This document shows positions 5,487-31,930 of a stretch of DNA of 32,000 nucleotides, piece by piece. Each line of letters begins with the position of its first letter. Position 1 is the first letter of the stretch. The notes beneath the pieces are model-generated. The model searched no databases and had not been told where the DNA came from. It worked only from the letters and a program-made list of their open reading frames with translations. Location of the stretch: the NCBI GenBank assembly GCA_021650915.1, contig CP091279.1, positions 2,400,001-2,432,000 on the forward strand. The letters are read 5' to 3'. The stretch comes from Candidatus Brocadia sp. GTDB taxonomy: Bacteria; Planctomycetota; Brocadiia; Brocadiales; Brocadiaceae. The position numbers were made by a program, and so were the translations under genes.

Positions 5487-7249
5487 TTGCACACATTGAT
5501 CACGGGAAATCTACCCTGGCAGACCGCTTGCTGGAAAAGACCCATACCATCACCTCGCGGGAGTTTCGCAATCAGATGCTGGACGATATGGACCTGGAGC
5601 GTGAACGCGGTATTACGATCAAGGCCAGCGCAGTTGCATTGAAGCTGGTGCGGGATGGCAAGGAGTATAACCTCAATTTAATCGATACGCCCGGTCATGT
5701 GGACTTCAGTTACGAGGTCTCCCGCAGTCTTGGCGCCTGCGAAGGGGCCCTGTTGCTGGTGGACGCATCGCAGGGTGTTGAGGCGCAGACCGTTGCCAAC
5801 GTCTTTCTTGCCATGGAGCATAATTTGGCGATTATTCCGGTCATCAGCAAGATCGACCTGCCGCAGTCCCGCCCCGATGATGTGCTTACCGAAATGGAAA
5901 AAACGCTGGGCATTGATCCTGCAGAGGCATTAATGGCCAGCGCAAAGACCGGGGAGGGCATAGATGAAATCTTTGGGGCTGTTATCGAACGCGTCCCTCC
6001 GCCCAAAGGAAGCCCGGATGCGCCGTTAAAATCCCTGATCTTCGATTCCGTGTACGATGAGTATCGGGGTGTTGTTGTGTACCTGCGTATCTTTGACGGT
6101 TCGGTGAAAGTGGGCGACGAGATATACATGATGAAGACAAACCGTTCGTTCAAAGTGGAAGAGGTCGGTGTTTTCAAACCCAAGATGGCCGCCAAAGATT
6201 GCCTCTCGGCGGGAGAGGTGGGGTACTGCATTGCCAATATCAAATCCATTCATGACGTCAAGGTGGGGGATACGGTTACCCACTACAGAGAAAGGGCTGC
6301 CGAGGCGTTGCCGGGATATCGCCCGCCCATGCCTATGGTATACTGCGGCGTGTATCCGGCAGATAACGCAGATTTCCACGTACTGCGGGAGGCATTGGAA
6401 CGGCTGAGTCTGAATGATTCGTCGTTCACCTTTGAACCGGAGACTTCACAGGCGCTGGGATTTGGGTTCCGGTGCGGATTCCTTGGCCTTTTGCATATGG
6501 AAATCGTGCAGGAACGGCTGGAGCGCGAGAGCAACATCAATATTGTGCAAACCGCTCCGAATGTGACCTATGAGATATTAAAAACCAACAAGGAGATAGT
6601 TAAGGTCGATAACCCGGAAAAGGTGCCGCCGGTGAATGAAATTGAGGAATTCAGAGAACCCATCGTGCGCGCCAGTTTTGTTCTGCCGACAGAATATGTG
6701 GGGACGATTATGCAATTTGCCGAAGGACGCAGGGGGAGATACAAAAGCACCGAGTATCTCAGTGAACGGCGTGCGATCCTTGTCTATGAGCTGCCGTTAG
6801 CCGAAATTATCTTTGATTTTTTTGATAAACTGAAATCCGCCACGCGGGGCTACGGCACACTGGATTATGATTTCCTGGGATATGAGCCTGCCGATCTGGT
6901 AAAACTGGACATTTTAGTGTCGGGCAAGCGTGTGGATGCCCTTTCTACCATTGTTCACCGGAAAGATGCGGAGATGAAAGGGCGAAGGCTGGTGAAAAAA
7001 CTCAAGAATGAAATTTCACGACACCTCTTTGAAGTGGTTTTACAGGCAGCAATCGGAAGCAGGGTTATTGCGCGGGAATCCATACGCCCAATTGCAAAAA
7101 ATGTGACGGCAAAATGTTATGGAGGAGATATTACCCGGAAACGAAAACTTCTGGAAAAGCAGAAAGAAGGCAAAAAGAGGATGAAGTCTGTCGGGAACGT
7201 GGAGATTCCGCAAAAGGCATTCTTGTCGGTATTATCTGTTGATGAATGA
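5453..7249 (+). CDS. lepA: Elongation factor 4 (LepA)
   Basis: [22 protein letters not shown] (G1) and DTPGHVDF (G3). 598 aa with a LepA-type C-terminal region. It shows the classical lepA-lepB adjacency and overlaps glk by 34 nt. Confidence 0.95.
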
Positions 7250-8763
7250 GGTGCAATGTGACTGATCTAAAAGAGAAACAAGCTATTACGCGCAACAAAG
7301 AGAAGACGAAAAAGAGGAAGGGTAAGTTACGTGAGAATATCGAGTCGATAGCGATTGCCGTCGCCATAGCCTTTGCGATCCGTTATTTTGTGGTAGAGGC
7401 GTTTAAAATACCTACGGGCTCGATGGCGACAACCTTATTGGGTGAACACAAGAACGTACATTGCCCGAATTGCGACTGGTTTTTTTATGCTGACCGCCAA
7501 AGTGACGACGCACTCTGTCCCAATTGTCAGTTCAAGATAAATCTGTCCGATTTCTGCGACGCTTGTGGTAACAGGATCCGGCATAACTGGCCTGCGTGGT
7601 TATGGAGGAAGGGGCATTGTCCCCGATGCCAGACTGCAGTTGCCTGGTCAGACTTGTCGAATCGGTTGATTCATGGTGGGAACAGGATTGTAGTGAACAA
7701 ATTCTGGTATAAATTTAAAGATCCGCAGCGATGGGATGTTATGGTCTTTATTTATCCATTGTACGATCTGACGTGCAAGAATTGCTCTGCGCAATTTCCC
7801 GATACGGAATGGCGGGACGGATTCCGCTGCCACCGGTGCGGGTCGACAAAATTTTCGAAGAAGAAAAAAAATTATATCAAACGGCTTGTTGGTTTGCCTG
7901 GCGAAAAGCTCCAGATCGTCAATGGTGATATTTATATTAATGACAAGATACAAAGGAAGCCGGATTCCGTGCAGAAAACGCTATGGATGCCGGTATACAA
8001 CAGTAATTATTTAGCAAAGAAGACGGATACTCCGGTATGGGTAACCAACGGTAATGCCTGGAAGATTCATGATACCTCGATTACCCTTGACACCCTGTCC
8101 CAGGAAGATTCCGATACATCCCTGGTAACGTTTGGCCGGAGTGTTTCAGATCAAAATGGTTACAATAGCCACTCGGGCCACAATGAAATGGGTGACGTCA
8201 AGATCAGCTTTGATGTTACCCTCCTGAAAGGTTCTCAGTCTCTGACGCTGGTTCTGGAAAAAAATAATGATATCTTTACCGCCCTTATTCCTGCGGACAG
8301 CATTGATGGAAAAACTCGTCTGCTGAAGAACGGGATGAGTGTGCTGGAAAAGGATTTCCGCTTACAAACCAGCCAGCAGCATAAGATCGAGTTTTCAAAT
8401 GCAGACCGTATGGTATGCCTGTCGATAAATGGCAATAAGGTTTTTTCCTTTGATGATGATGATGGGGTGATACCCGACCTGCGTTCCTCTGATACGAGTA
8501 AGATTCGTTTTGGCGGTACCCGCGTCCACGCAACCTTTGGGAATATTAACATATTTCATGATATTTATTATACCAGCCTCTCTGCCGGTTCATGGGGCAC
8601 AACGAAACCGGTACAGTTGGGAGAAAAAGACTATTTTATGCTTGGGGATAATAGCAGAAACAGCAATGACAGCCGGGTATGGAAATTTGTTCCGGAAAAG
8701 AATATTGTCGGCAAGGCATTTTTTGTCTTCTGGCCGCCAAACACCATGAAATTTATCAAATAA
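7246..8763 (+). CDS. lepB: Signal peptidase I with Cys-rich insertions
   Basis: One N-terminal TM segment ([16 protein letters not shown]). SPase I boxes: [10 protein letters not shown] (Ser), [44 protein letters not shown] (Lys), [17 protein letters not shown]. The ATGA overlap with the lepA stop suggests translational coupling. 505 aa with six CxxC motifs in two insertions. Confidence 0.9.
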
Positions 8764-11683: not shown

Positions 11684-12699
11684 TAATCAAAGCCTAGTAT
11701 TACAACAAATTAATTACGAAACATAGTGCCTTGACAGCTTTTGATCAGCATCTTGCCGTGTAAACTTCCAATCTATTGTTGATTTGGCCTGGTTGCGTCG
11801 GTCAGTCCACGCAGCGACTTCCGACCGAAGGGTTTGTTCGTTTGGTATTCGGCACCCAGTACACTGCCGATCCATGATGCCGATTTCAATTTCAGCCATA
11901 TTAAGCCAACTGGCATGCTTGGGAGTATAATGAAATTCTACTCGTTCCAACATTTGGGTTGCTTCTTCAACACCCAATATTTCTTCAAAACTACTGCGAA
12001 AATGAGTATTAAGATTGTCCAACACCAGATGAATCTTGAGCGCCCTTACATAGACTTTTTTTACCAAATGGCCGATGAACTGGACAAAATCTCTCTTGGT
12101 ACGACGGGTTGTCACTTCAACCTGTCTACAACCACCCTTAGGTTCAACTGCCATGAAAATATTACGGGTGCCGGCACGTTTATACTCGCAGTCCTCTTTG
12201 ACAGGATTGCCCGGACTGGCAGGAATTGGGGGGCGCGGTTGTTCCAAAAGCTGCTTACTCTTCTCGTCTACGCAAATCACTGGCTCGTCCTCACAATAAG
12301 ACCTCGTGTAGAGTTCCAGCAAGTCATACATCCTTTGGCGGTATTCCTCAGTCAATTTACCAATACACCACATCAATTTCCGCCACGGCTTACAGTCGTT
12401 TTTTTTAGAAAGAGACGGATACTTTCACGACTAATCTTTCTAAGTTTTAGCTGTTGCCTTATTGCTTCAGTCAACAAGGCGATTGTCCAGCGCCTGGCAC
12501 CCTTCGGTGGTGCACTACATGCCAAAGCTACGACTTCGGCTTGTTGGTTGGTTCCGTATTTTACCGGCTGACCGGGTCTGACAACATCGTGAAGTGCATA
12601 ATCCAAGCCCTTCTCAAGATATGCAGAGCGTGTCCGCCAAATGGCAGTGCGGCCAACACCCAGAACAGACAGAATATGTTTTTCAGGCACATTTTGGTC
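11684..12699 (-). mobile_element. IS630-family element lacking its 5' end (left boundary uncertain)
   Basis: Contains the two-frame transposase below. The right side ends where the inverted repeat of the neighbouring IS begins (12700). No matching terminal repeat could be found, so the left limit is only approximate. Confidence 0.5.
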
Positions 12700-21178: not shown

Positions 21179-21907
21179 TTATCTTCTTCTCTTCAAATCA
21201 AAATCAACCTTCGTAGCCTTTCCTGCCTCTACGGTAACTTCCTGTGATAGTTCCTTCAGTTTTTCGTGCCAGGTCTTCACGGTATATTTTCCCGGCGGAA
21301 CACCTTCAATCGTATAGTTTCCGTCTTTATCAGTAATAGCAAAATACGGATTTTCAAAGGTTACGGCAAATCCTGCCATTTCGCTGTGAACGTTGCAAAG
21401 GAGCGGCGTCTCGCCAACAACATCAAAAAGCACCTCTTTTACCACACCCGTTGGATACGTTCCCAGGTTAAATTGTAATGCCGCGGTGGGCGGAGAAAAC
21501 ACGTTGTGACGAACCGCATCGCTATTCGGAAAGTCCACCGTTGTACCCTTCTGCATAGCAACAACGCGTGGTACATAGGTAAGATTAAGCTGATCAACAA
21601 CGGCATGTTCTGTGGGCGGAGCAAACTTGTTATCTCCTACTTTTTCAATGAATACGATCGCATCAGCACTGTTCCTCATTTTCTGGCAAGTTACAACGCC
21701 GGTGATAGAGCCTGCATTATCCACGCTCGGCACATTTTTAACCACCTTCTTCAACTTCTGCTGGGCCTCTTCCAGTTTCTTCGCCGCCTCGGCCATCTCT
21801 TCAGGTGTCAACACCTTCTTTTCCTCCGCCTGAGCCCAAACAATTGAATGAGAAAAAAATACTACAGACGAAATCGCAAGCAGACCAGAAATAAGATATT
21901 TTTTCAT
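21179..21907 (-). CDS. Secreted cupredoxin-like (type-1 Cu ligand set) protein with a C-terminal carboxypeptidase-regulatory-like beta-sandwich
   Basis: Start taken at ATG 21907, 12 nt after GGAGGG. Signal peptide MKKYLISGLLAISSVVFFSHSIVWA, then a Lys/Glu-rich helix. The candidate Cu ligands are His in VRHNVFS and Cys, His, Met in LLCNVHSEM. The tail YFAITDKDGNYTIEGVPPGKYTVKTW...VDFDL is typical of CarboxypepD_reg-like domains. Confidence 0.6.
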   Translation of the reverse strand: MKKYLISGLLAISSVVFFSHSIVWAQAEEKKVLTPEEMAEAAKKLEEAQQKLKKVVKNVPSVDNAGSITGVVTCQKMRNSADAIVFIEKVGDNKFAPPTEHAVVDQLNLTYVPRVVAMQKGTTVDFPNSDAVRHNVFSPPTAALQFNLGTYPTGVVKEVLFDVVGETPLLCNVHSEMAGFAVTFENPYFAITDKDGNYTIEGVPPGKYTVKTWHEKLKELSQEVTVEAGKATKVDFDLKRRR

Positions 21908-21942
21908 AAACTCTTTATTCCCTCCTATCCTCAAAAATTTCT

Positions 21943-22003: not shown

Positions 22004-25000
22004 TTACGCCTTTTCCACTTTTATCAACTCACCGCCCAGATACTTCTTCATGAAATCATTTTCGTTGCCGGTTGTATATCCGGTTTTTGCCGGATCCCAC
22101 AATCCTTTACCCCCAATCCCACCATCCTCAGCCTTGCAAACCTTCACCAGGGTCTCCTTGGGAACCGTATTGATACCGTGGTTATCGGCCTCGAAACCAA
22201 AGACGAACTTCATGCCAATCTTAGCCTTGTGGAACAGGCTGTCAAGCTGATGCATGGGCATAGACCAGTCCCTGGTAAGACTCTGTTGAGAACCGTAACG
22301 GAAGCTTGATTGATATCCGGTACCAGCCGACAATGCCCTGCCATCAGGTCTTGTCTCATGGGCCTTTACTGTTTTCTCCGTAGATATCCACGAAGAGTGC
22401 TTAATCATTGTTACCTCATAAGGATAGGAAGAATTATACTTTGCCCTGAGCATAAGTCTTGACACCTTATAGAAGGGGTCATTTGGCTTCCATCCTTCGT
22501 AGGGTCTATCTGCCGGGTTGGCATCGACGTATACATAATCGCCGTCATTAATACCCAAGTCTTTCGCTGCCTGTGGGTTGATATTAATCTGATGCTCACC
22601 AACACCGGGCATTCTCTTATCCATTCTGTATGGATCACCAAAATTGTTGTTCCAGATGAAGTTCCAGTCGGTCACGGCCCACTGAGAGTGCACCGTATGC
22701 CTTGATTTTGGCGTTACACAGAAGAACTTATACCCTTTCTCCCACAGGAAGTTCTTTGTTTGCTTCGTCTCTGCCCATGATTTCTTGATGTTCCTTACGG
22801 TTCTTTCGTCCCAGTGCTCTGCACTCTCCGGAATTCCATAATCGTCCGGACGGATGTAAGGATTGGTGCTTACAATTACGTTTGGCAGGTACTGCGTTGC
22901 CTCAGGACCTTCACGATGTACGATGAAATTCTCGCCGTACTCAATGATTTCTGATTCATCATTATAAGCCTGCAGTCTCCCCGTTGGCGTGTAGAATGGC
23001 AAACTTTCATGCACCTGCTCCCAGAATGGCTGTCTGGGATACGTCCTGTAATTTAACAAGGCCACGCCAGGCTCGCCGTATTTACCAGCCACAATATCAT
23101 CAAAAGTGTATCCCTTCGAGGTAGTACTGCCATCCAATAGCCTCTGGATGTAGACTTCAGGCCTTCCCTCCAGGGCAAACTTCCAGAAGTCCCTGAATCT
23201 CATATCCCTGAGCAATTCACCCAGCTTTGCCGCCATACCTGCAAGTACCATCACATCATCCTTGGAGTCGTTTACCGGCCTTATACCACCCTTCCAAATC
23301 TGGAAGAACGGATTGGAACATGAACTGGTAATCTCGTGGGTCTCGAACTCCATCCAGCTATTTGCCGGGAATGCGAAATCCGCATATTCTATCGAACCCG
23401 TCATTTCAATATCCGTAGACATGATCTGCTCAATATTGGGGTTCACATTCTTCAGCATCTGATACACATGCTTTGCATTGTTGACCAAGTTTACATTGGT
23501 AAACCACATGACCTTGGTCGGCGTTGGCATGTGCGTCTTGCCGGTGAAGCATTTACGCCCGTACTTTGGCGTATTCACAATTAAAGGCCTGTCATTGTGG
23601 TTCCAGTATGCAACTTCTTCATCATAGGCACGGCCCTTTACCTTTAAATCCATTGCCGGCGCGGTCGGATCAAGGTTTGGATTAAATACGTCTTCCGCCA
23701 CCCAACCGTAGAATCCAGGACCGCACCACTTTGCTGCCTGGAAATTGCCTGCCTTATAATTTCCTGCCCAGGTATGAGAACCAGATCCTTTATATCCTAC
23801 GTTTCCGGTTAGCATAAGCGGCAAATAGGTCGACCGGTTCATGAGTGTTGCATGGAAATAGTGATTGATACCCTCTCCATAATGGATTGCCACAGGTTTT
23901 ATGGTCGCAATATCGTGCGCCAATCTTACGATTAACTCTTTTGGAGAATTAGTCATTTCAACGACACTGTCAACATCATAATCTTTGAGGTGTATCTTAT
24001 ACATCTCAAAGAGAGGCATTACCTCAATCTCTTTACCATCAACTGTTTTTACTTTAAATGTGCCATCGAGAGCGGGGTCAATGCCTTTGGCCGTTAGTTT
24101 ATCACCAACATCGTCCCTCGTGATCGGCTTTGGACCCTTTGTCTTTGCATCCCACACAACAAAATCCCCGATAATTTCTCTCTGGTCATCGTGGAGGCCA
24201 TGCAGCTTGTAACTAGGACCATGCGTAATATCTTCTAATTTGTAATCGGGGAAGATGTCTTTCGCTTGCAACCTCTTCAAGGTATCTGTCCTGACAAGTA
24301 ATGGGAAATCGGTAAACTTCTTTACATAGTCAGCATCGTAGAGATTCTCATCCATCAGTATTTTTGTCAAGCCCAGAAAGAGCGCCGTGTCGGTGTTACA
24401 CTTGATCGGGATCCAGTAGTCGGCCTTTTGAGCAGACGGACTATACTCAGGCGTAATAACAACGAGTTTTCCGCCTCTCTCCATAACCTGGGTCAGCCAG
24501 TGCGCCTCAGGCATCTTATTTTCAATCAGATTCTTTCCCGTTTGGATGACCAGCTTCGAAAACCGAATATCATTCATATCGACATCTGAGGTCTGCAAAC
24601 CATGAGAGAAAGGATGCCCTGGGGCCTGATCACCATGCCATGTATAGTTCGACCAGTTCCTTCCGCCCAGCGCTTTATCAGGTCCTACGCCTCTGTTATG
24701 ACTATCAACCAGGGAAAGCATGTTGTTAAACCGGTACATACCATACTTTCCGATAACACCGAGGAGACCCATACCCCCACGTCCCTTGAACGTTCTCGTG
24801 CCTGCACCCTTCATGGCATCCACCATTTCTTTCGGATACCCTTGCTCTATAAGCTTCTTGGCACCCTCTTCACCGCTGTATTTCTTGGTAATGTGAATAA
24901 TCCCTTTTGCAGCATACGTCCAGGCATCATCCCACGATGCCTTTAAGAGCTCATCTTGTCCTCTGGCATCAAACATATACTTTGACTTATTTTCCGGTGT

Positions 25001-25453
25001 CAATTCAGGAAACCCATCATCTGCCCACTGTTTCCACCCTTTTCTGATAAGCGGATACCGTAACCTATATGGACCATAAACCCTGCGGTGGAAGGTGTAG
25101 CCTTTCAGACACATCCTGGGATTCCAGTTCCTGGTCGCCTTATTCCCGTAAAGGTCTGCGTAATTCTGATGGTCGTAATTCTGCTCAACCCTCATAACCA
25201 CTTCATTCCTCACAAACGCCCTCACCCTGCAGGCATGGGTGTCATTCGGCGAACACGTAAAGGTGAATGTCCGGTCATACCGATACTGGTCACGATAGAC
25301 ACTCTCCCATGAGCGATCGGGATAAGCATCCAGGGGGTTTCCTACCTCTACGGCAGGTTTTAAGAGCCTGAATGCCATTGCCTTATTGGCAACGGTAAAG
25401 GTCGCTCCTGTTGCACCTGCCACTTGTAGGAAAGTTCTTCTGGTAAGTTTCAT
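22004..25453 (-). CDS. nxrA: Nitrite oxidoreductase alpha subunit, periplasmic type (type II DMSO reductase family molybdoenzyme)
   Basis: Twin-arginine signal MKLTRRTFLQVAGATGATFTVANKAMA. 1149 aa with an N-terminal Cys/His cluster FTCSPNDTHAC. AAGGAG lies upstream of the ATG. The gene is embedded with nxrB-like, haem-b gamma-like and TorD-like genes. Confidence 0.8.
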   Translation of the reverse strand: MKLTRRTFLQVAGATGATFTVANKAMAFRLLKPAVEVGNPLDAYPDRSWESVYRDQYRYDRTFTFTCSPNDTHACRVRAFVRNEVVMRVEQNYDHQNYADLYGNKATRNWNPRMCLKGYTFHRRVYGPYRLRYPLIRKGWKQWADDGFPELTPENKSKYMFDARGQDELLKASWDDAWTYAAKGIIHITKKYSGEEGAKKLIEQGYPKEMVDAMKGAGTRTFKGRGGMGLLGVIGKYGMYRFNNMLSLVDSHNRGVGPDKALGGRNWSNYTWHGDQAPGHPFSHGLQTSDVDMNDIRFSKLVIQTGKNLIENKMPEAHWLTQVMERGGKLVVITPEYSPSAQKADYWIPIKCNTDTALFLGLTKILMDENLYDADYVKKFTDFPLLVRTDTLKRLQAKDIFPDYKLEDITHGPSYKLHGLHDDQREIIGDFVVWDAKTKGPKPITRDDVGDKLTAKGIDPALDGTFKVKTVDGKEIEVMPLFEMYKIHLKDYDVDSVVEMTNSPKELIVRLAHDIATIKPVAIHYGEGINHYFHATLMNRSTYLPLMLTGNVGYKGSGSHTWAGNYKAGNFQAAKWCGPGFYGWVAEDVFNPNLDPTAPAMDLKVKGRAYDEEVAYWNHNDRPLIVNTPKYGRKCFTGKTHMPTPTKVMWFTNVNLVNNAKHVYQMLKNVNPNIEQIMSTDIEMTGSIEYADFAFPANSWMEFETHEITSSCSNPFFQIWKGGIRPVNDSKDDVMVLAGMAAKLGELLRDMRFRDFWKFALEGRPEVYIQRLLDGSTTSKGYTFDDIVAGKYGEPGVALLNYRTYPRQPFWEQVHESLPFYTPTGRLQAYNDESEIIEYGENFIVHREGPEATQYLPNVIVSTNPYIRPDDYGIPESAEHWDERTVRNIKKSWAETKQTKNFLWEKGYKFFCVTPKSRHTVHSQWAVTDWNFIWNNNFGDPYRMDKRMPGVGEHQININPQAAKDLGINDGDYVYVDANPADRPYEGWKPNDPFYKVSRLMLRAKYNSSYPYEVTMIKHSSWISTEKTVKAHETRPDGRALSAGTGYQSSFRYGSQQSLTRDWSMPMHQLDSLFHKAKIGMKFVFGFEADNHGINTVPKETLVKVCKAEDGGIGGKGLWDPAKTGYTTGNENDFMKKYLGGELIKVEKA

Positions 25454-25520
25454 ATTTCCTACTCCTTTCTCAACGTAAAACCATGTATATAAAAGTTTTT
25501 ACCTAAATTATTCTGAAAAA

Positions 25521-26480
25521 TCAACAAACTGTCTTTCTTACTTTATAAGCCTCTGCACATTGCCCGCATACGCCATCTTCCGGCTCCCAGTCAGGAAAAT
25601 CTTTTTTTATTTCATTCACAAGATACTCATCTTGCTCAATGCCTTCCATCCATTGATATGTCCGAAATTGGCATAGAGGACATTGGGTTCCCGGTAAAAT
25701 GGTCTTTTTCTTCTTAAGAGTATGCTTTATCGGCAACCCGTCAGAAATTTTTATTACCTCATTCACATCCCTTGCCATCCTCAGTATCTTTTCATGCGTC
25801 AACTTCTCATCTTGCCACAGGACATCAAAGATAGCCATTTTCACTTCATCAGGAATTTTTTTATAGAGAGCAGAGAACTCATTATACCGGATGTCTTTAT
25901 CGGAGAGCGTCTCTTTCCCTTTCCTGATCAATCTGCTATCTACATAGATGTCCCAGAAAACACAATACCGCTCCTTGACAATGCTTTCTTCCATGGGATT
26001 GCCGCCGAGGCGTTCATCACGATAGCCGTACGAATCACTGAGCATATCAGAGGCATGCGTCAATTCATGCCTGACCAATTTTTTCAGATAAGGAATATCA
26101 AGAAAACGCTCCGGGAGCAATTTAACAACAATCCTTTTTTGACCAGACTCCTGATTCATACCCTTAGTAAGATACGAGCCCTCGTCAAAATTATTTACCG
26201 CCTTGGCGATCACTCCGCCGGCAGATTTTTCTTCAAGCTCAGGAAATTCGCTGAAAACCTCTTTTATGAGCTTCGGATACTCAAGTTTTTTAAAGAAATC
26301 CCACTCAATCTTTTTAAACTGCGATGGTCTTTCATCTAAGGGAAAATTTTCGTAAACCGGATCAATGGAGGAATGATATTCGAGAGTCAGAGTAAAATCC
26401 CCCTTTTCCTCCCTCGCCTTCAACTCCCCAAAGATTACCTCTTCAATCAAACTCGGATCAAATTCCAGATTCATAATCAT
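25521..26480 (-). CDS. Uncharacterised HExxH / C-terminal CxxC...CxxC protein encoded inside the nxr operon
   Basis: 319-aa ORF with no signal peptide. HExxH in LVRHELTHASD. CPLCQF and CGQCAEAY are separated by 34 residues. The start overlaps the stop of the chaperone gene (ATGA, 26477-26480). Confidence 0.8.
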   Translation of the reverse strand: MIMNLEFDPSLIEEVIFGELKAREEKGDFTLTLEYHSSIDPVYENFPLDERPSQFKKIEWDFFKKLEYPKLIKEVFSEFPELEEKSAGGVIAKAVNNFDEGSYLTKGMNQESGQKRIVVKLLPERFLDIPYLKKLVRHELTHASDMLSDSYGYRDERLGGNPMEESIVKERYCVFWDIYVDSRLIRKGKETLSDKDIRYNEFSALYKKIPDEVKMAIFDVLWQDEKLTHEKILRMARDVNEVIKISDGLPIKHTLKKKKTILPGTQCPLCQFRTYQWMEGIEQDEYLVNEIKKDFPDWEPEDGVCGQCAEAYKVRKTVC

Positions 26481-27271
26481 TCCTCACTGAAATCTTCAGA
26501 AGATGCGCAGGATAAGCATTCATCTGAAGCCCCAGCTACCGCCTCCTGATTGAGATCGGATTCCTTATATATCTCCGTTTTTACACCCATTAATTTTATT
26601 TCCAATCTCAGAAACTCTTTTGTCAGAGCAGATACTGCACGGTAAAAACCTTCCCCCGCTTTTCTGGCAAAGAGAACCGAGAAGAGCGGCACCCATTTGC
26701 CTATATGCTCTTTCAGGAACTTCTTTTGTGCATCCACGCATATCTGCGTCTTTTCATCGCCATGGTTTTCCATGGCGTAGGCTTGCTTGTAAAGCAAAAA
26801 GTGCATAAATTCCAATTCTACACTTACGTGGTCGCATCGTTCCTTCTCTATTTCCGAAGTATCAAGCCCAAATGCCCGGTAAAAACCCTGAATATCCCCT
26901 AATTCCTGCACTTGCTGAAACACCTGGGATGCGCCGTACTGCGTTTCGTAGAGAGGGCACTCCTTTGACATCGTGTGCCCAACAATGCGCTGGTATTCAG
27001 ACTGCAAGATCTCAATGGATGTAGCTGCGAATGCCTCCTGAATCTCTCCAAAACACCTGTTTAACTCAACGCCATCGTCTATACTTTCATAACACAACAC
27101 TAACGCTTTCTGATATTCCTGAATTTCAGGAGTTTTCAGCACTGACAAATTTTTCTCCGTTGGATAGAGAAAACAGGCAGACAAAACCTGATACATGGAG
27201 CTTCGCGTAAGCAAGCTATCGACTCTGGATGCAACTTCCTGATCTAAAAGACTATTCCTGTCGGCTTCCAT
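26477..27271 (-). CDS. TorD/NarJ-family redox-enzyme maturation chaperone
   Basis: 264 aa, cytoplasmic. TorD-like pattern MYQVLSACFLYP...SEYQRIVG...CPLYETQY...IQGFYRAFGL...DHVSVELEFMHFLL. GAGG lies upstream of the ATG. Confidence 0.75.
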   Translation of the reverse strand: MEADRNSLLDQEVASRVDSLLTRSSMYQVLSACFLYPTEKNLSVLKTPEIQEYQKALVLCYESIDDGVELNRCFGEIQEAFAATSIEILQSEYQRIVGHTMSKECPLYETQYGASQVFQQVQELGDIQGFYRAFGLDTSEIEKERCDHVSVELEFMHFLLYKQAYAMENHGDEKTQICVDAQKKFLKEHIGKWVPLFSVLFARKAGEGFYRAVSALTKEFLRLEIKLMGVKTEIYKESDLNQEAVAGASDECLSCASSEDFSEE

Positions 27272-27286
27272 AAATAAACCTCAATT

Positions 27287-28498
27287 CTAAATTGAATTGT
27301 AATGTTTTGGGTCCCTGATGTAAACGGGCTCTTCGACTGTAGTCCTAACAACCTCTTGCCCATCCTCACCATACCCAATAACGGTATCGTTGTACAACTC
27401 AAACTTCTTGCCGTGAATCGTTGTCTCAAACACTTTTGGCCCTTCCTCAATCTTGTACTCATAAATAATGGTTTGAGTCATTCTGAACAACGACATCACC
27501 GCCAACCTCTCCCGGGAAGGCACCATAAACTTCTCAATTGCCTCATCGACACCAGGACCAAACATCTGCCTCAGATAAGCCCTTGGCGCCCATCGCGGTG
27601 GTATATAGTATATGTTCGGCTCCGTTCCAAACTGTGGGTACAGAGGCAATGCTAACTTATCGTGTCTGATCAACCACGTAACCGGGTTCTTCGGGTTATC
27701 ATCCAGGAATCCCTGCAACCGAATCTGCCCTACGCACGCAGCCATACATCGCGTCTCCATCGGGCGCCCCTTCGTCAAGGGATCTCTTCCTTCAATTCTG
27801 GGATAACAGGCAATGCACTTTTCGCTTACTCTCGTTAGCCCCCGGTACATGGGTTTTTTGTAAGGGCACTGCTCAACACATTTCCGGTACCCTCTGCACC
27901 GTTTCTGGTCAATAAGAACAATTCCATCCTCTTTTCTTTTGTAAATAGCCTTTCGAGGACAGGCTGCCAGACATCCGGGATAGGTGCAATGGTTGCACAG
28001 TCGTTGAATGTAAAAAAACCACCTGCTATGCTCCGGCAATGAAGAATATTCATCCGGCTTATTGCTCTTTGCCACATCTTCTCCAAAATTCGGTGCGCGC
28101 CATTCCTTGTCTTCGGGAATATAACCGACTGCCCACTGGTTGATATTCTTCTTTGCTGCAGCCTCAAAGATCGTATCACCCTCATAAACTCCGTAAGGCG
28201 ACAACTTCTCATCTTTCTCATCGGTATACCAGGTATTTTCACCGTTATCAATCAGCTTCAGCGTTTTTACATCCCACGACTGCGGATAACCACCATATGG
28301 CTTGGTCTCCACGTTGTTCCACCACATGTACTCCTGCCCTTTGTTGTATGTCCAGGCACTTTTGCAAGCCATGGTACAGGTCTGACAGGCAATACACCTA
28401 TTGGTATTGAAGATAGCCGCAAACTGATGTTTTGGTCTGGACTCAAAATAGGGATACTCCATCCTTCTCCCTAAGTGCCAGTTGTGTACTAATGTCAT
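27287..28498 (-). CDS. nxrB: Nitrite oxidoreductase beta subunit (four Fe-S cluster ferredoxin subunit)
   Basis: Cys groups CIACQTCTMAC, CNHCTYPGCLAACP, CRGYRKCVEQCP and CIACYPRIE. 403 aa with no signal peptide, so export would be by hitch-hiking on NxrA. AGGAGG lies upstream. Confidence 0.85.
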   Translation of the reverse strand: MTLVHNWHLGRRMEYPYFESRPKHQFAAIFNTNRCIACQTCTMACKSAWTYNKGQEYMWWNNVETKPYGGYPQSWDVKTLKLIDNGENTWYTDEKDEKLSPYGVYEGDTIFEAAAKKNINQWAVGYIPEDKEWRAPNFGEDVAKSNKPDEYSSLPEHSRWFFYIQRLCNHCTYPGCLAACPRKAIYKRKEDGIVLIDQKRCRGYRKCVEQCPYKKPMYRGLTRVSEKCIACYPRIEGRDPLTKGRPMETRCMAACVGQIRLQGFLDDNPKNPVTWLIRHDKLALPLYPQFGTEPNIYYIPPRWAPRAYLRQMFGPGVDEAIEKFMVPSRERLAVMSLFRMTQTIIYEYKIEEGPKVFETTIHGKKFELYNDTVIGYGEDGQEVVRTTVEEPVYIRDPKHYNSI

Positions 28499-28538: not shown

Positions 28539-29510
28539 TTATTGCCAGGCCACTCTTTCCAGTGTTACAGGATGCCACTGAATAGAGATATTCTTTTGCC
28601 CATTCCTATCTTGTTCTCCGCCATTCCATACTGCAATATTGAAATAGCTCGTCCCGCCAGGCACAAACTGCACGTCATGTGGATCATTGGTAATTAAAGG
28701 ACGATAGAAAATCACCGTCCATGCCCCGTCTTCGTACTTGCTGCATCCATTTACGTCCTGGTGATCCTGGGTGGTCAACGTACCAAAACCCTCTGCATTT
28801 AAATCCTCTACCGACCTTCCCCTCCACGGCTGAGAAAGCAAATTATTCGCAGCCCTTCCACCCGACAAAACCTCAACGCTTGTTATGAGCTCCCGGTGAT
28901 AATATGCACTGTAGGGATTCAGGTTAAAGTCATCATGCATATTGGGATACTGCGCCTCTACGTCTTCCAACTCGCCCTTTACCAGCAAATCCGCTTCCCA
29001 GTCTGCCTTCCAATGCCAAAGGTTTGTTGGCTTTTCCCGGTCGCCCATTCTTGGACTGAAATGTTCTGCCGGCGTTATCTCAACTGCTCCCAAGGGAAAC
29101 ATCAGCGCCACTGCATCCCTGAATTCCTGAACTGCAATTGCCCGGGCATTCTTTGTCGGATCGCTCCAGGAAACCTTGAAATACACCGTAAGACCATCAT
29201 GAATGGCTCTCACCTCCGCATTTGCTATTGATCCACCGCCATTCGGAAAAGCCTTGTCTTGCTTTTGAAACGGTACGGTTACACCCTTTGCATCATTGAA
29301 AAAAGCGTGTAACGTTTCAACATCCAAATGATACGGCTTACCCACATCCACATATTTTATATTCAACACTTCTTTTGCCGGAATAAATTCCTCATCGCTT
29401 GGCCCTTTTACCCCTGGCGTTTCATCAGCAGCAAATAATACCGTGCTGAGAAAAGCACAACTCAAGAGGGCCACACCATATCTCTTTAAAAACGAATATG
29501 TTTTTTTCAT
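28539..29510 (-). CDS. nxrC: Nitrite oxidoreductase gamma subunit (ethylbenzene-dehydrogenase gamma-like, haem b-binding family)
   Basis: Start taken at ATG 29510, directly after GGAGGGGGGAGA; the ORF-track start 29582 has no RBS. Sec signal MKKTYSFLKRYGVALLSCAFLSTVLFA. EB_dh-like core ..AIHDGLTVYFKVSWSDPTKN...ALMFPLG... Confidence 0.75.
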   Translation of the reverse strand: MKKTYSFLKRYGVALLSCAFLSTVLFAADETPGVKGPSDEEFIPAKEVLNIKYVDVGKPYHLDVETLHAFFNDAKGVTVPFQKQDKAFPNGGGSIANAEVRAIHDGLTVYFKVSWSDPTKNARAIAVQEFRDAVALMFPLGAVEITPAEHFSPRMGDREKPTNLWHWKADWEADLLVKGELEDVEAQYPNMHDDFNLNPYSAYYHRELITSVEVLSGGRAANNLLSQPWRGRSVEDLNAEGFGTLTTQDHQDVNGCSKYEDGAWTVIFYRPLITNDPHDVQFVPGGTSYFNIAVWNGGEQDRNGQKNISIQWHPVTLERVAWQ

Positions 29511-30000
29511 TCTCCCCCCTCCTTCATTATTTCTTAATATAAAAGACGATAAACATATTTTTTGATTATACGATAAATACAAGCAAACCGCTATCTAAAA
29601 ATCCAAGACCTCCTTCCTATCAACCACAGAGATATTATATCCCAATAATCAAATCCCTCCACGACACCTTCAGAAACAATTGCCGAGCTCTATACTTTTG
29701 TAGGCTTCAGATCAAACACTGGCAAACGATATTCCACAAACCAAGGGTTAATATTTGCCAACATGCTTTACCTATTTTTATTCTTTGCAGTATATTACAA
29801 CATTTAGTCTTTTTTGGTGTACGAGGTTGCAGAGCACGCGCATTTCTTTTTTGAAATAGGCGGTGCATGATTGAAACAACCGGAATACCGGGATAAGAAG
29901 GTTGCGAACAGGCAATAATCTCTGATCGTAAACGGCGGGTACCAGGACATTTTGGCTTGAGGGAGAGACTGAGATGTCCATCCAGTTCATAAACCACTTT

Positions 30001-31338
30001 TCAAACACTATGAATCGAGCTGTCACCCATGAATAACGCCTTTGCCTCATCTACAATCTGAGTAGTTATTTCCTGATAACCCTTCTCTTGCGCAAACTCT
30101 TCAATTTTTTTCTTCACTACGCCTCTAACAAAAGAAGGAATCCTCTCGGTTTGTATTTGTGCTTCCTGCGTCCAAACAGGAATTTGTCTTTTTATCTGAT
30201 GCTTGTCGGAAATTTTTTGATCGCTTTTCACTACCCTTGCGAAACCATCTGCGCTATGCGGAGACTCAAGGGTATTCGTTACCGACGCATATTTTTTTTC
30301 GTTTAATGGTCTGTGGAACTCCAAGAATCCATTTGGTTCATTTACCTCAGCCTCTGCATTTCCACCGGTCAGCAGCACATTACATGGCGCCAATCTCAGG
30401 AGATTTTCTGTTGTGCTGCCAAGATCTAAGCCATTGGTATTATGAATCCCGGTACGTCCCACGATCACGGTAGAAGGGTTTTCTTTTTGAAGAAACCGCA
30501 GTATTTTGTCATAAGGTTTGCCCTCCATGAGGACCGTGTCAAGCTCAACGCCAGCATCACTGGCCATTCTGGCTGCCCGATCAAGGTGGTTCTGGTATAT
30601 TTTGGCCAATCCTTTATCAATAATCTCCTCATGAAGCGTTTCCTGCTCCTTAAACCGGAAAATCTGACCCGCTTCCTGAGAAAGCACATTTGCAATACTT
30701 TCAAAAGCAACACGGTGATAATGGGGATCAAATACAGAAACCGCGACAAGTTTTACATTGAACGACTTCGCAAACTGGATAGCGGAAGCAAACCCGGCAA
30801 AGGAAGCTAAACTACCATCTACCGCGACCACCACCTTCCCATCAAAACCGTTATTCTTTACGACAAGAACATCGGTTTTAATACGCCGGACAACCCGTTC
30901 GCAAACACTTCCAATCATTTGTTCATTAACGGCAGCCAAACCAAGCACTCCTAAAATCACCAGATCGTACCGGTTTCTCTGGACTTCGTTTATGATTTCA
31001 TGATAATTTTTTCCCTCTAACAGGAGCTGCTCATGAGGAACTGCCATTTCCATGCATTTTTGTTTAAATACGTTCAGATACGATTCCGAAATCAACTTGA
31101 GCCCCAAATTGATCAGCGAACTATGAAGATCTCGCTGGTGTTGCAAAACATTCTCGTCCTGGTACTGAGGCGGCAATCCCTTTTCCATATCGCGGAAACG
31201 CCGTTGGTGCAAGGCGGCGTCATAGACATGGCACCCCACTAGCAGGGAACCATATTTTTGAGAAAGGGCAACCCCTGCATCGATGCAAAAATTGGAGTAA
31301 CAAGAATTGTCAACGGCAACAAATATTTTTTTATACAT
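30001..31338 (-). CDS. Tandem universal stress protein domains fused to a small ChlB/BchB C-terminal-like (PCP_red-like) domain
   Basis: USP 1: MYKKIFVAVDNS...DLVILGVLG...TDVLVVK. USP 2: KVVVAVDGS...TVIVGRTG...CNVLLT. The C-terminal segment IPVWTQEAQIQTERIPSFVRGVVKKKIEEFAQEKGYQEITTQIVDEAKALF resembles the helical domain at the end of protochlorophyllide reductase subunit B. Confidence 0.75.
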   Translation of the reverse strand: MYKKIFVAVDNSCYSNFCIDAGVALSQKYGSLLVGCHVYDAALHQRRFRDMEKGLPPQYQDENVLQHQRDLHSSLINLGLKLISESYLNVFKQKCMEMAVPHEQLLLEGKNYHEIINEVQRNRYDLVILGVLGLAAVNEQMIGSVCERVVRRIKTDVLVVKNNGFDGKVVVAVDGSLASFAGFASAIQFAKSFNVKLVAVSVFDPHYHRVAFESIANVLSQEAGQIFRFKEQETLHEEIIDKGLAKIYQNHLDRAARMASDAGVELDTVLMEGKPYDKILRFLQKENPSTVIVGRTGIHNTNGLDLGSTTENLLRLAPCNVLLTGGNAEAEVNEPNGFLEFHRPLNEKKYASVTNTLESPHSADGFARVVKSDQKISDKHQIKRQIPVWTQEAQIQTERIPSFVRGVVKKKIEEFAQEKGYQEITTQIVDEAKALFMGDSSIHSV

Positions 31339-31360: not shown

Positions 31361-31930
31361 TTACCCCTTTGGTGATTCATTTCTCAATTTCTTCCATTCG
31401 CTGATCGCACCGCTGGCCAGTGCAATGGTGATTACAGCGATGAAGCCCCAGCGCATCACAGCTTTAACCGGGCTTTCTTTTTCATCGACCGATACGGGTC
31501 CTTTTGCCACAGCAACCGGAGCCGCAGATTCCTGTGTTGCAAGTCCTCGTATATACGCAACCAGCTCCTTGATCTTTTTATCCGTGAGCGTCTTCCCCCA
31601 TGGTGGGCAAAGATTTGACTTATCAACAGACTTCGAACCATCGGTGATAGACTTTATCAGCTGATCATCAGTCCTTTTTTTCATATAGTCGAGATCGGTA
31701 AAGTTTCTCGGTTTTGGTTTCAGATCAATGGTAAAAAACGTTCCATCCCCTTTTCCCTTTAAACCATGACATGGGGAGCAATAATAGTCAAAGGTTTTTT
31801 TCGGTGACAGTAAAAATATCTGATCTCGCGGGGAAACTTCAGCACCGTTTGCCGTTGCAAACCAACCAATTACCCCAAACACAAGAGCTGTGTTTACAGC
31901 AAATTTTTTCCAGCACATAAAATATCCCAT
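31361..31930 (-). CDS. Monohaem c-type cytochrome with a C-terminal membrane anchor
   Basis: N-terminal signal/hydrophobic segment. A single CxxCH (YYCSPCHG). C-terminal TM helix WGFIAVITIALASGAISEW. 189 aa. Confidence 0.75.
   Translation of the reverse strand: MGYFMCWKKFAVNTALVFGVIGWFATANGAEVSPRDQIFLLSPKKTFDYYCSPCHGLKGKGDGTFFTIDLKPKPRNFTDLDYMKKRTDDQLIKSITDGSKSVDKSNLCPPWGKTLTDKKIKELVAYIRGLATQESAAPVAVAKGPVSVDEKESPVKAVMRWGFIAVITIALASGAISEWKKLRNESPKG

What the first reader, a model, noticed from the sequence alone, without database searches (positions are those of the whole stretch)
25521..26480. Uncharacterised HExxH plus zinc-ribbon-like protein translationally coupled to the NXR chaperone
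This 319-aa protein has no export signal. Its start overlaps the stop of the TorD/NarJ-like chaperone gene (ATGA at 26477-26480), and it lies directly upstream of nxrA. It has one HExxH motif (LVRHELTHASD) and a C-terminal CPLC...CGQC pair 34 residues apart, but I cannot assign it to a named family by eye. A metalloprotease-like or zinc-binding protein placed between the maturation chaperone and the catalytic subunit suggests a dedicated NXR assembly or processing factor, possibly acting on apo-NxrA or its TAT leader before export. No such function is described for this enzyme as far as I know.
Basis: partly seen in the sequence, partly recalled or inferred. Interest (0 to 1): 0.7.

Follow-up and report, generated by a model that had tools for sequence, protein, structure and literature searches.

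The report
Uncharacterised accessory protein of nitrite oxidoreductase
This gene encodes a real, conserved cytoplasmic protein that almost always sits next to the assembly chaperone of nitrite oxidoreductase, in anammox bacteria and many other bacteria, so it is probably a helper for building that enzyme; its protease-like motif is not conserved well enough to call it a protease.

Summary
A 319-aa ORF (more likely 317 aa, from the second ATG) lies between the TorD-like chaperone gene and nxrA in a Candidatus Brocadia nxr cluster. It has HELTH at residues 138-142 and a CPLC...CGQC ribbon.

It is the orthologue of Kuenenia kustd1701, annotated "unknown protein". That gene is transcribed, but the protein was not detected in the proteome and is not part of purified NXR.

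The family has no Pfam or NCBIfam model and no solved homologue. It is much wider than anammox: 961 clusters at 50% identity.

- All 39 genome loci, anammox-type, show chaperone-X-nxrA.
- In 87 other loci, a TorD-like gene lies directly upstream in 51 of 63.
- The gene directly downstream is nxrA-like in 16 of 62 and a MOSC-domain gene in 28 of 69. One locus has an X-MOSC fusion.
- mobA, moaA, moeA, Mrp-type and NapF-like genes are often nearby.

Only 92 of 138 members keep both histidines. Glu139, Asp145, Trp176 and the four cysteines are nearly invariant. A variant without the second histidine keeps the same context.

Best reading: a co-factor of the chaperone in cytoplasmic maturation of NxrA, probably at molybdenum cofactor loading. 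Proteolysis is possible but not required. Cutting the Tat leader before export is unlikely.

The parts
25521..26480 (-). ORF X, orthologue of Kuenenia kustd1701. It is 319 aa from the first ATG and most likely 317 aa from the ATG at 26472-26474.
   Evidence: Searches show the ORF. One search gives 84 homologues, with a 100% match to a Ca. Brocadia sp. protein of 317 aa. One search shows the conserved start and Shine-Dalgarno. One search gives an AlphaFold model with pLDDT 87.
26046..26069 (-). Codons for H138-E139-L-T-H142-A-S-D145 (HExxHxxD) on a predicted helix spanning residues 129-147.
   Evidence: Across the family, E139 and D145 are kept in 136/138 members and both histidines in only 92/138.
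25938..25940 (-). Codon for D181 on the next long helix (residues 162-186). It is a candidate third metal ligand in members that have HExxH.
   Evidence: Asp here in 77/92 members with both histidines against 14/46 without. This is the strongest association of any column, but it is not corrected for phylogeny.
25557..25682 (-). C-terminal zinc-ribbon-like module, C267-P-L-C270 ... C305-G-Q-C308, with conserved F272, W277, F295-P296-x-W298 and Y312.
   Evidence: All four cysteines are kept in 134/138 family members. A stand-alone copy of this module occurs in Scalindua-type loci.
26477..26485 (-). Junction with the chaperone gene: GAGGA Shine-Dalgarno (26481-26485), the ATG/TGA overlap (26477-26480), then the conserved ATG at 26472-26474.
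26477..27271 (-). TorD/NarJ-family chaperone (NxrD, orthologue of kustd1702). It is the conserved partner gene.
   Evidence: Nitrate_red_del 2.9e-21; TIGR03482 7.9e-28, score below that model's cut-off. A TorD-like gene lies directly upstream of X in 39/39 anammox loci and 51/63 other loci.
22004..25453 (-). nxrA, the molybdopterin catalytic subunit with a Tat signal. It is the presumed client.
   Evidence: (7B04 NXR-A aligned over residues 1-1147).
27287..28498 (-). nxrB, the Fe-S subunit.
   Evidence: Fer4_11 5.2e-23; synteny.
28539..29582 (-). nxrC, the haem b subunit (EB_dh family).
   Evidence: EB_dh 2.3e-34; synteny.

Best explanation
X is a cytoplasmic accessory protein of the periplasmic or anammoxosomal type of nitrite oxidoreductase, and not a subunit of the enzyme. 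It is made at low level together with the TorD-like chaperone NxrD. It most likely acts with NxrD on unfolded or cofactor-free NxrA before Tat export, at or near the step where the molybdenum cofactor (Mo-bis-MGD), and possibly the FS0 iron-sulfur cluster, is loaded.

Proposed mechanism (inferred, not shown): X is a binding or adaptor protein built from three parts. These are an N-terminal helical domain, a small zincin-like alpha/beta core, and a C-terminal zinc ribbon on a lysine-rich linker. The core carries the invariant Glu139/Asp145/Arg171/Trp176/Arg183 cluster. In about two thirds of members, including this one, it also carries a likely metal site formed by His138, His142 and Asp181. 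X would bridge the chaperone-NxrA complex and the cofactor-supplying proteins (MOSC, MobA, MoeA). Peptidase activity is possible in members with HExxH, but it is not the function conserved across the family.

Shown: the gene, its conservation, its synteny, its residue pattern, and its absence from purified NXR.
Inferred: the partner, the client, the step, and the non-proteolytic mode of action.
For: - Synteny in genomes: all 39 genome loci from Brocadia, Wunengus, Loosdrechtia, Jettenia, Kuenenia and Scalindua have the order nxrC-nxrB-torD-X-nxrA.
- Family size: a profile search found 961 clusters at E<=1e-3 and 314 at E<=1e-30, mostly full length.
- Synteny elsewhere: in 87 loci from metagenomes and other assemblies, a TorD-like gene lies directly upstream in 51/63. 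46/53 loci with at least 2.5 kb of flank on one side hold an NXR component.
- Independent annotation: nine Pfam-annotated contexts show X beside TorD-like, Fer4_11, Molybdopterin or EB_dh genes.
- Same enzyme clade: neighbouring NxrA-like proteins are 60-94% identical to the window NxrA. That range matches the Nitrospira/Nitrospina/anammox NXR clade according to PMC8387239.
- Cofactor link: a MOSC-domain gene directly follows X in 28/69 loci. L045 encodes an in-frame X-MOSC fusion (MOSC 8.1e-6, above the Pfam cut-off). mobA is in 14 loci, moaA in 8 and moeA in 5.
- Variants keep the context: a member with HEFSR sits torD-X-moaA, and a member without the ribbon sits torD-X.
- Rate of change: X and TorD diverge at the same rate, far faster than NxrA and NxrB.
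- Not a subunit: purified Kuenenia NXR holds only kustd1700, 1703 and 1704, plus 1705 in tubules (PMC8387239). kustd1701 is transcribed at a lower listed value than nxrA (168 against 1296), and neither it nor the chaperone was detected as protein (PMC6423088).
- Precedent (established knowledge): NarJ-dependent docking of the cofactor-synthesis proteins MogA, MoeA, MobA and MobB onto apo-NarG in E. coli.
Against: - No direct evidence of any interaction or activity exists.
- The window protein itself has an intact HExxH plus Asp181, so a catalytic role in anammox bacteria cannot be excluded.
- The MOSC and Mob neighbours are absent from anammox loci.
- The metagenome loci were found partly through a HELMH pattern, so that sample is biased towards members with HExxH.
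- Neighbour calls rest on tblastn and a simple ORF caller.
- Model coordinates could not be inspected, so the geometry of the proposed site is untested.
- Presence in cultured Nitrospira and Nitrospina was not verified by sequence.
Confidence: 0.55

Rival explanations
1. X is a genuine zinc metallopeptidase of the zincin type (HExxH plus Asp181). It processes NxrA or a partner during maturation, or degrades misassembled apo-NxrA as quality control. This would resemble hydrogenase maturation endopeptidases, or the protease-chaperone Atp23.
For: - HExxH is invariant in the 15 anammox-clade orthologues aligned.
- The motif sits on a helix that follows three beta strands, as in minimal zincins.
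- Asp181 on the next helix tracks the presence of both histidines (77/92 against 14/46).
- The top Foldseek hit for the core domain is the protease SPRTN, though not significant (E 0.53, TM 0.31).
- Weak Pfam hits to Peptidase_M76 (Atp23) in 3 of 15 members, best E 0.0053.
- A database name, 'SprT-like domain-containing protein', is attached to the identical Brocadia protein.
Against: - One third of the family lacks a histidine of the motif (42 members keep one, 4 keep none, of 138). Glu139 and Asp145 are kept in 136, which points to a role for them other than catalysis.
- A variant lacking a histidine keeps the same gene context.
- No peptidase family reaches significance by profile, profile-profile or fold search.
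- No cleavable extension of NxrA is known.
- Cytoplasmic removal of the Tat leader would prevent export.
Confidence: 0.2
2. X helps to insert the unusual FS0 [4Fe-4S] cluster into NxrA, or iron-sulfur clusters in general, working with Mrp/NUBPL-type carriers and NapF-like ferredoxins.
For: - In one group of loci (L040, L041, L101, L116) X is directly followed by an Mrp/NUBPL-type P-loop ATPase (ParA family 5.2e-89) and a NapF-like ferredoxin.
- A NapF-like gene directly follows X in 4 further loci and is present in 12.
- Four conserved cysteines could bind iron, as in the rubredoxin-like FdhE (established knowledge).
- FS0 of Kuenenia NXR-A has an unusual Asp ligand (PMC8387239).
Against: - These neighbours are a minority. 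MOSC, MobA, MoaA and MoeA are more frequent.
- A member without the ribbon keeps the torD-X context.
- There is no similarity to FdhE (hhalign probability 3.9%).
Confidence: 0.1
3. X is a regulator that tunes nxr expression or translation, with the zinc ribbon and lysine-rich linker binding nucleic acid.
For: - The ribbon follows a KKKK-containing, low-confidence linker.
- The listed transcript value for nxrA in Kuenenia is much higher than for kustd1701 and kustd1702.
- A weak promoter-like match spans the end of X (25507-25535, 9 of 12 matches, no better than chance).
Against: - No DNA- or RNA-binding domain is detected.
- The conserved neighbours are a chaperone and cofactor-synthesis genes, not regulators.
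- The fusion partner is a MOSC domain.
Confidence: 0.05
4. X is itself the client of the TorD-like protein, as the zinc enzyme YcdX is of the TorD-family chaperone YcdY in E. coli. It would have an activity unrelated to NxrA maturation.
For: - The torD-X pairing (51/63, and 39/39 in anammox) is tighter than the X-nxrA pairing (16/62).
- X probably binds metal.
Against: - The chaperone matches the type II DMSO reductase chaperone model (TIGR03482). Members of that group serve the molybdenum subunit (established knowledge).
- The pair is embedded in NXR clusters in nearly all loci.
Confidence: 0.05

Closest known systems
Kuenenia stuttgartiensis kustd1701 (KsCSTR_07990), listed as 'unknown protein' of the nxr cluster kustd1699-1713
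   Same: Orthologue: 55% identity over 99% of the length (P0075). It holds the same position between the chaperone (kustd1702) and nxrA (kustd1700). It is probably the 'putative zinc finger' protein listed as conserved among Kuenenia, Nitrospira and Nitrospina (PMC3578206).
   Different: There is no functional difference to report, because neither protein has been characterised. The link to the 2013 'zinc finger' remark is inferred, since that paper gives no gene id.
System-specific redox-enzyme maturation proteins of the TorD/NarJ/DmsD family
   Same: They share the cytoplasmic location, low expression, encoding inside the operon of a Tat-exported molybdoenzyme, and a presumed action on the apo catalytic subunit.
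   Different: There is no sequence or fold relationship. X has no Nitrate_red_del match, whereas the neighbouring gene does. X comes in addition to such a chaperone, not in place of one.
FdhE, the cysteine-rich accessory protein needed for Tat-dependent formate dehydrogenases in E. coli
   Same: Similar size (309 aa), cytoplasmic, CxxC pairs near the C-terminus, and needed for a periplasmic molybdoenzyme without being a subunit (established knowledge).
   Different: Not homologous: hhalign probability is 3.9%. FdhE has no HExxH core, and X has a single ribbon rather than two rubredoxin-like centres.
SprT-like / SPRTN / Wss1 minimal zincin proteases (E. coli SprT/YggI: HExxH core plus C-terminal zinc ribbon)
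   Same: The order of elements matches: beta strands, an HExxH helix, then a C-terminal CxxC...CxxC ribbon. SPRTN is the top, non-significant, fold hit. A source database names the identical Brocadia protein 'SprT-like domain-containing'.
   Different: - No Pfam SprT-like hit for the window protein or its anammox orthologues. One distant member scores E 0.16.
- hhalign against E. coli SprT gives probability 2-3% over 21-28 columns.
- The histidines are not conserved across the family.
- X has an extra 85-residue N-terminal helical domain and a 60-residue helical insert.
Atp23 (peptidase M76), the mitochondrial protease that doubles as an assembly chaperone of ATP synthase
   Same: It shows how a protein with HExxH can serve enzyme assembly independently of its proteolytic activity (established knowledge). 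Weak Pfam hits to M76 occur in 3 of 15 anammox-clade members (best E 0.0053).
   Different: The scores are far below the Pfam cut-off, and only 1 of 56 wider family members gives even a weak hit. The resemblance is a lead, not membership.

Membership tests
Orthologous group of kustd1701 (conserved protein of NXR clusters) | Full-length sequence similarity to Kuenenia kustd1701 / KsCSTR_07990 | tested here: met
   P0075: E 1.6e-113, 55% identity, 99% coverage.
Orthologous group of kustd1701 (conserved protein of NXR clusters) | Position between the TorD-like chaperone gene and nxrA | tested here: met
   All 39 genome loci, wherever the contig reaches that far. The gene order of Kuenenia is given in PMC6423088.
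Zincin metallopeptidases (HExxH) | Both histidines and the glutamate of HExxH conserved throughout the family | tested here: not met
   Both histidines are kept in 92/138 members, one in 42 and none in 4. Glu139 is kept in 137/138. The window protein itself has the full motif.
Zincin metallopeptidases (HExxH) | Significant profile match to a curated peptidase family | tested here: not met
   Best hits are Peptidase_M76 at E 0.0053 (3 of 15 members), M90 at 0.032 and M91 at 0.15. All are below the cut-offs. No match to any PDB sequence.
Zincin metallopeptidases (HExxH) | Zincin fold: mixed sheet, active-site helix, and a third ligand on a following element | tested here: inconclusive
Zincin metallopeptidases (HExxH) | Zinc binding and peptide-bond hydrolysis | not testable with these tools
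   Needs metal analysis and activity assays.
SprT-like family (PF10263 plus zinc ribbon) | Match to the SprT-like profile or to E. coli SprT | tested here: not met
   No PF10263 hit at E<=10 for the window protein or the A1 members. hhalign against E. coli YggI/SprT gives probability 2.3-3.1%.
SprT-like family (PF10263 plus zinc ribbon) | Architecture: HExxH core followed by a C-terminal CxxC...CxxC ribbon | tested here: met
   This is a resemblance of layout only.
TorD/NarJ/DmsD chaperone family | Nitrate_red_del (PF02613) domain | tested here: not met
   No hit for X. The neighbouring ORF at 26477-27271 has one (2.9e-21).
FdhE family | Sequence or profile similarity to E. coli FdhE | tested here: not met
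   hhalign probability 3.9%.
Zinc-ribbon / treble-clef modules | Two CxxC pairs conserved across the family | tested here: met
   All four cysteines are kept in 134/138 members. Only weak hits to the FmdE treble clef (3 of 15, E 0.15). Metal binding was not tested.

The most novel reading that the evidence does not exclude
X defines a new family of molybdoenzyme maturation factors, in effect an 'NxrE'. It would be a zincin-derived scaffold, with or without a live metal site, that partners the TorD-like chaperone. It would couple the last steps of molybdenum cofactor supply (MOSC, MobA, MoeA) to cofactor insertion into the Tat-exported catalytic subunit of Nitrospira/Nitrospina/anammox-type nitrite oxidoreductases. 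Its conserved Glu/Asp/Arg/Trp pocket might bind the cofactor, a nucleotide or the Tat leader.
Probability: 0.35. Interest if true: 0.7.

Novelty: new variant of a known kind. Interest (0 to 1): 0.5.

Why it matters
Nitrite oxidoreductase produces almost all nitrate on Earth, yet how the periplasmic or anammoxosomal form is assembled is not known beyond a presumed TorD-like chaperone. X is a second dedicated factor. It is conserved from anammox bacteria to Nitrospirota-, Acidobacteriota- and Phycisphaerales-labelled genomes, paired with the chaperone in about four of five loci, and linked by neighbourhood and one fusion to molybdenum cofactor genes. That makes it a concrete candidate to test. 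It may also be a missing ingredient for producing active NXR in a laboratory host. The family, about 960 clusters at 50% identity, has no Pfam or NCBIfam model and no solved relative, so defining it would improve annotation of nitrogen-cycle genomes.

Tried and rejected
Searches that found no named relative for X:
- Pfam and NCBIfam scans of X: nothing significant.
- PDB sequence searches with the narrow profile (A1) and the wide profile (A2): nothing.
- Foldseek against the PDB with the full model and with a core-domain model (residues 80-250): no hit below E 0.5.
- hhalign against E. coli SprT/YggI and FdhE: probabilities of 2-4%.

Libraries that were not available:

Searches that were less useful than hoped:
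- The word-indexed search with the 56-sequence alignment returned only 22 hits.
It was redone with a narrower alignment, which biases the sample towards HELMH members.
- The search from P0250 did not return named Nitrospira or Nitrospina proteins, so their membership remains unverified.
- Cluster look-ups gave few organism names.

Analyses discarded or found to be artefacts:
- A regex-based motif-by-context table picked spurious matches and was discarded.
- Long 'TorD' ORFs in GC-rich loci were artefacts of my ORF caller, not fusions.
- Extensions on P0095, P0112, P0178, P0183 and P0270 have no Pfam domain.

Idea rejected:
- X removing the Tat leader in the cytoplasm, because that would stop export.
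Full report
**Observation**

The window holds an nxr cluster on the minus strand. In order, the genes are:
- a cytochrome c gene (31361-31930);
- a Usp/PCP_red gene (30001-31338);
- nxrC (28539-29582, EB_dh);
- nxrB (27287-28498);
- a TorD/NarJ-family chaperone gene (26477-27271);
- the ORF in question, here called X (25521-26480, 319 aa);
- nxrA with a Tat signal (22004-25453).

NxrA aligns end to end with the solved Kuenenia NXR-A, 7B04.

X contains LVRHELTHASD (H138, E139, H142, D145). It also contains CPLC (267-270) and CGQC (305-308), with 34 residues between them. The ATGA overlap with the chaperone stop codon is present. However, related Brocadia loci conserve only the second ATG (26472-26474, giving MNLEFD). 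That ATG has a GAGGA Shine-Dalgarno 6 nt upstream, and database homologues are 317 aa. The real gene therefore probably starts 2 nt after the chaperone stop. This is still tight coupling.

An identical protein is recorded from Candidatus Brocadia sp..

**Identity**

A word-indexed search returned 84 homologues. All that carry an organism name are from anammox-type or Planctomycetota-labelled bacteria: Brocadia, Wunengus, Loosdrechtia, Kuenenia, and one distant 'Planctomycetes bacterium' at 38% identity; Scalindua-type copies turned up in later searches. The list includes Kuenenia KsCSTR_07990 at 55% identity.

By position this is kustd1701, listed as "unknown protein" between kustd1700 (NxrA) and kustd1702 (PMC6423088). 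In that study the transcript was listed and the protein was not detected. The same was true of the chaperone kustd1702.

Purified Kuenenia NXR contains only kustd1700, 1703 and 1704, with kustd1705 added in tubules (PMC8387239). X is therefore not a structural subunit.

The Nitrospina genome paper lists "one putative zinc finger" protein among the genes conserved in the NXR clusters of Kuenenia, Nitrospira and Nitrospina (PMC3578206). This is probably the same family, but the paper gives no gene id.

No paper that I could search assigns a function to this gene.

**No named family**

- Pfam and NCBIfam give nothing significant for X or its relatives. The only hints are Peptidase_M76 in 3 of 15 members (best E 0.0053), isolated M90 and M91 hits, and an FmdE treble-clef hit.
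- Profiles of the family find no solved structure by sequence.
- AlphaFold gives a confident model (pLDDT 87, pTM 0.72). It shows an N-terminal helical domain, three strands followed by the HExxH helix (129-147) and a long helix (162-186), more helices, a low-confidence lysine-rich linker, and the ribbon.
- Foldseek against the PDB finds nothing below E 0.5, for either the whole model or the core domain modelled alone. The top core hit is the protease SPRTN (E 0.53, TM 0.31).
- hhalign against E. coli SprT/YggI aligns only the strand-plus-HExxH segment (probability 2-3%). hhalign against FdhE gives 3.9%.
- The source-database name "SprT-like domain-containing" is therefore a layout resemblance that I could not confirm as membership.

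**The family is large and tied to NXR clusters**

An exhaustive profile search found 961 clusters (50% identity) at E<=1e-3 and 314 at E<=1e-30, mostly full length. The few organism names include Acidobacteriota, Phycisphaerales, a groundwater 'Nitrospirae' and 'Deltaproteobacteria'.

All 39 genome loci found by the first scan are anammox-type and have the order nxrC-nxrB-torD-X-nxrA.

In 87 further loci:
- A TorD-like gene lies directly upstream of X in 51 of 63 loci with enough flank.
- An NxrA-like gene lies directly downstream in 16 of 62.
- 46 of 53 loci with at least 2.5 kb of flank on one side hold an NXR component.

Several of the exceptions are loci of one type. In these, X is followed by an Mrp/NUBPL ATPase, a NapF-like ferredoxin, a cytochrome bd-like protein and a cytochrome c/EB_dh protein. 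This resembles the conserved NXR-associated cluster described for Nitrospira and Nitrospina.

The neighbouring NxrA-like proteins are 60-94% identical to the window NxrA. According to PMC8387239, that range corresponds to the Nitrospira/Nitrospina/anammox clade and not to Nitrobacter-type enzymes, nitrate reductases or EbdA.

Pfam-annotated contexts from an independent gene catalogue agree.

**Link to the molybdenum cofactor**

Outside anammox bacteria, the commonest arrangement is nxrC-nxrA-(small ORF)-nxrB-torD-X.
- In 28 of 69 loci X is then followed directly by a MOSC-domain gene of about 154 aa (Pfam 1.5e-10).
- In L045, X and MOSC form one reading frame (MOSC 8.1e-6, above the Pfam cut-off).
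- mobA occurs in 14 loci, moaA in 8 and moeA in 5.

These genes make or carry Mo-bis-MGD. Together with the constant TorD partner, they place X in the cofactor-insertion part of the operon.

X and the TorD-like protein also diverge at the same rate (36-88% and 36-91% identity among anammox loci). NxrA and NxrB stay at 65-99%. This pattern is typical of accessory proteins.

**The HExxH motif**

Among 138 full-length members:
- Glu139 and Asp145 are kept together in 136.
- Trp176 is kept in all.
- Arg171, Arg183, Tyr43, Arg51, Phe55, Phe63 and Glu100 are kept in about 90% or more of members.
- All four cysteines are kept in 134.
- Both histidines are kept in only 92. One is kept in 42, most often as RExxH or HExxR, and none in 4.

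One such variant (P0212, HEFSR) lies in the order torD-X-moaA, with X's end overlapping the start of moaA. A member without the ribbon still follows torD. The function conserved across the family therefore does not depend on an intact zinc-peptidase site.

On the other hand, Asp181 on the next helix is the column most strongly associated with having both histidines (77/92 against 14/46). This test is not corrected for phylogeny. It does fit a His-His-Asp metal site in the majority subfamily, which includes this protein. I could not inspect model coordinates.

**Conclusion**

The specific ideas fare less well. The metalloprotease reading is possible for this protein but not established, and it is not the conserved function of the family. 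Processing of the Tat leader before export is unlikely on first principles.

I rate the co-chaperone or cofactor-insertion adaptor model at about 0.55, a true maturation protease at 0.2, an Fe-S insertion helper at 0.1, and a regulator or a chaperone client at 0.05 each.

The gene itself is already on record as a conserved unknown. What is new here is:
- the size of the family;
- the rule that the chaperone is its constant partner;
- the MOSC, MobA, MoaA and MoeA neighbourhood and the one fusion;
- the incomplete conservation of HExxH.

Noticed in passing
L034:4480-5230 (also L035-L038, L108, L110, L114, L120, L121): Scalindua-type nxr clusters carry an extra ORF of about 207 aa between nxrB and the TorD-like gene. 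It has an N-terminal hydrophobic segment and a C-terminal CPLC...CxxC ribbon that is 39-41% identical to the ribbon of X. The ribbon is therefore a separable module, here apparently tethered to a membrane.
   Followed up: partly
L045:902-2365: A family member is fused in frame to a MOSC domain. In 28 of 69 non-anammox loci a separate MOSC gene of about 154 aa directly follows X, often followed in turn by mobA.
   Followed up: partly
L065:4796-5326; L125:12308-12562; L126:4593-4880; L129:6078-6362: Non-anammox NXR-like clusters have a small conserved ORF (78-180 aa, no Pfam match) between nxrA and nxrB. It was seen in 19 loci.
   Followed up: no
L039 (JAZFSN010000183.1): A contig binned as Thermodesulfovibrionia carries a Scalindua-like nxr cluster with X (NxrA 65% and X 36% identical to the window proteins). 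This is either horizontal transfer or a binning error.
   Followed up: no
L040:2759-4290; L123:12558-16352: Other recurrent neighbours of X-containing clusters are an Mrp/NUBPL-type Fe-S carrier ATPase, a NapF-like ferredoxin with an RR motif near its N-terminus, a B12-binding radical SAM protein of about 600 aa, and MoeA.
   Followed up: partly
window 25507-25535 (-): A weak sigma-70-like match (AAGACA-17-AATAAT, 9 of 12) spans the end of X just upstream of nxrA. In Kuenenia the listed transcript value for nxrA is several-fold higher than for kustd1701 and kustd1702. An internal promoter is possible, but the match is no better than chance.
   Followed up: partly
window 21179-21934 (-): Directly after nxrA lies a 251-aa protein with a CarboxypepD_reg-like domain, at the position of Kuenenia kustd1699. 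It is followed by ispG, dxr, an RseP-type M50 protease and an FHA-GAF sigma-54 activator.
   Followed up: no
window 30001-31338 (-): A 445-aa protein combines two universal-stress-protein domains with a C-terminal PCP_red domain (the 57-kD subunit domain of protochlorophyllide reductase). It is conserved in the anammox nxr clusters at the position of kustd1706.
   Followed up: no
window 11714-12376 (-) and 7246-8763 (+): A DDE_3 transposase fragment, and an unusually long (505 aa) S26 signal peptidase with an N-terminal double zinc ribbon.
   Followed up: no
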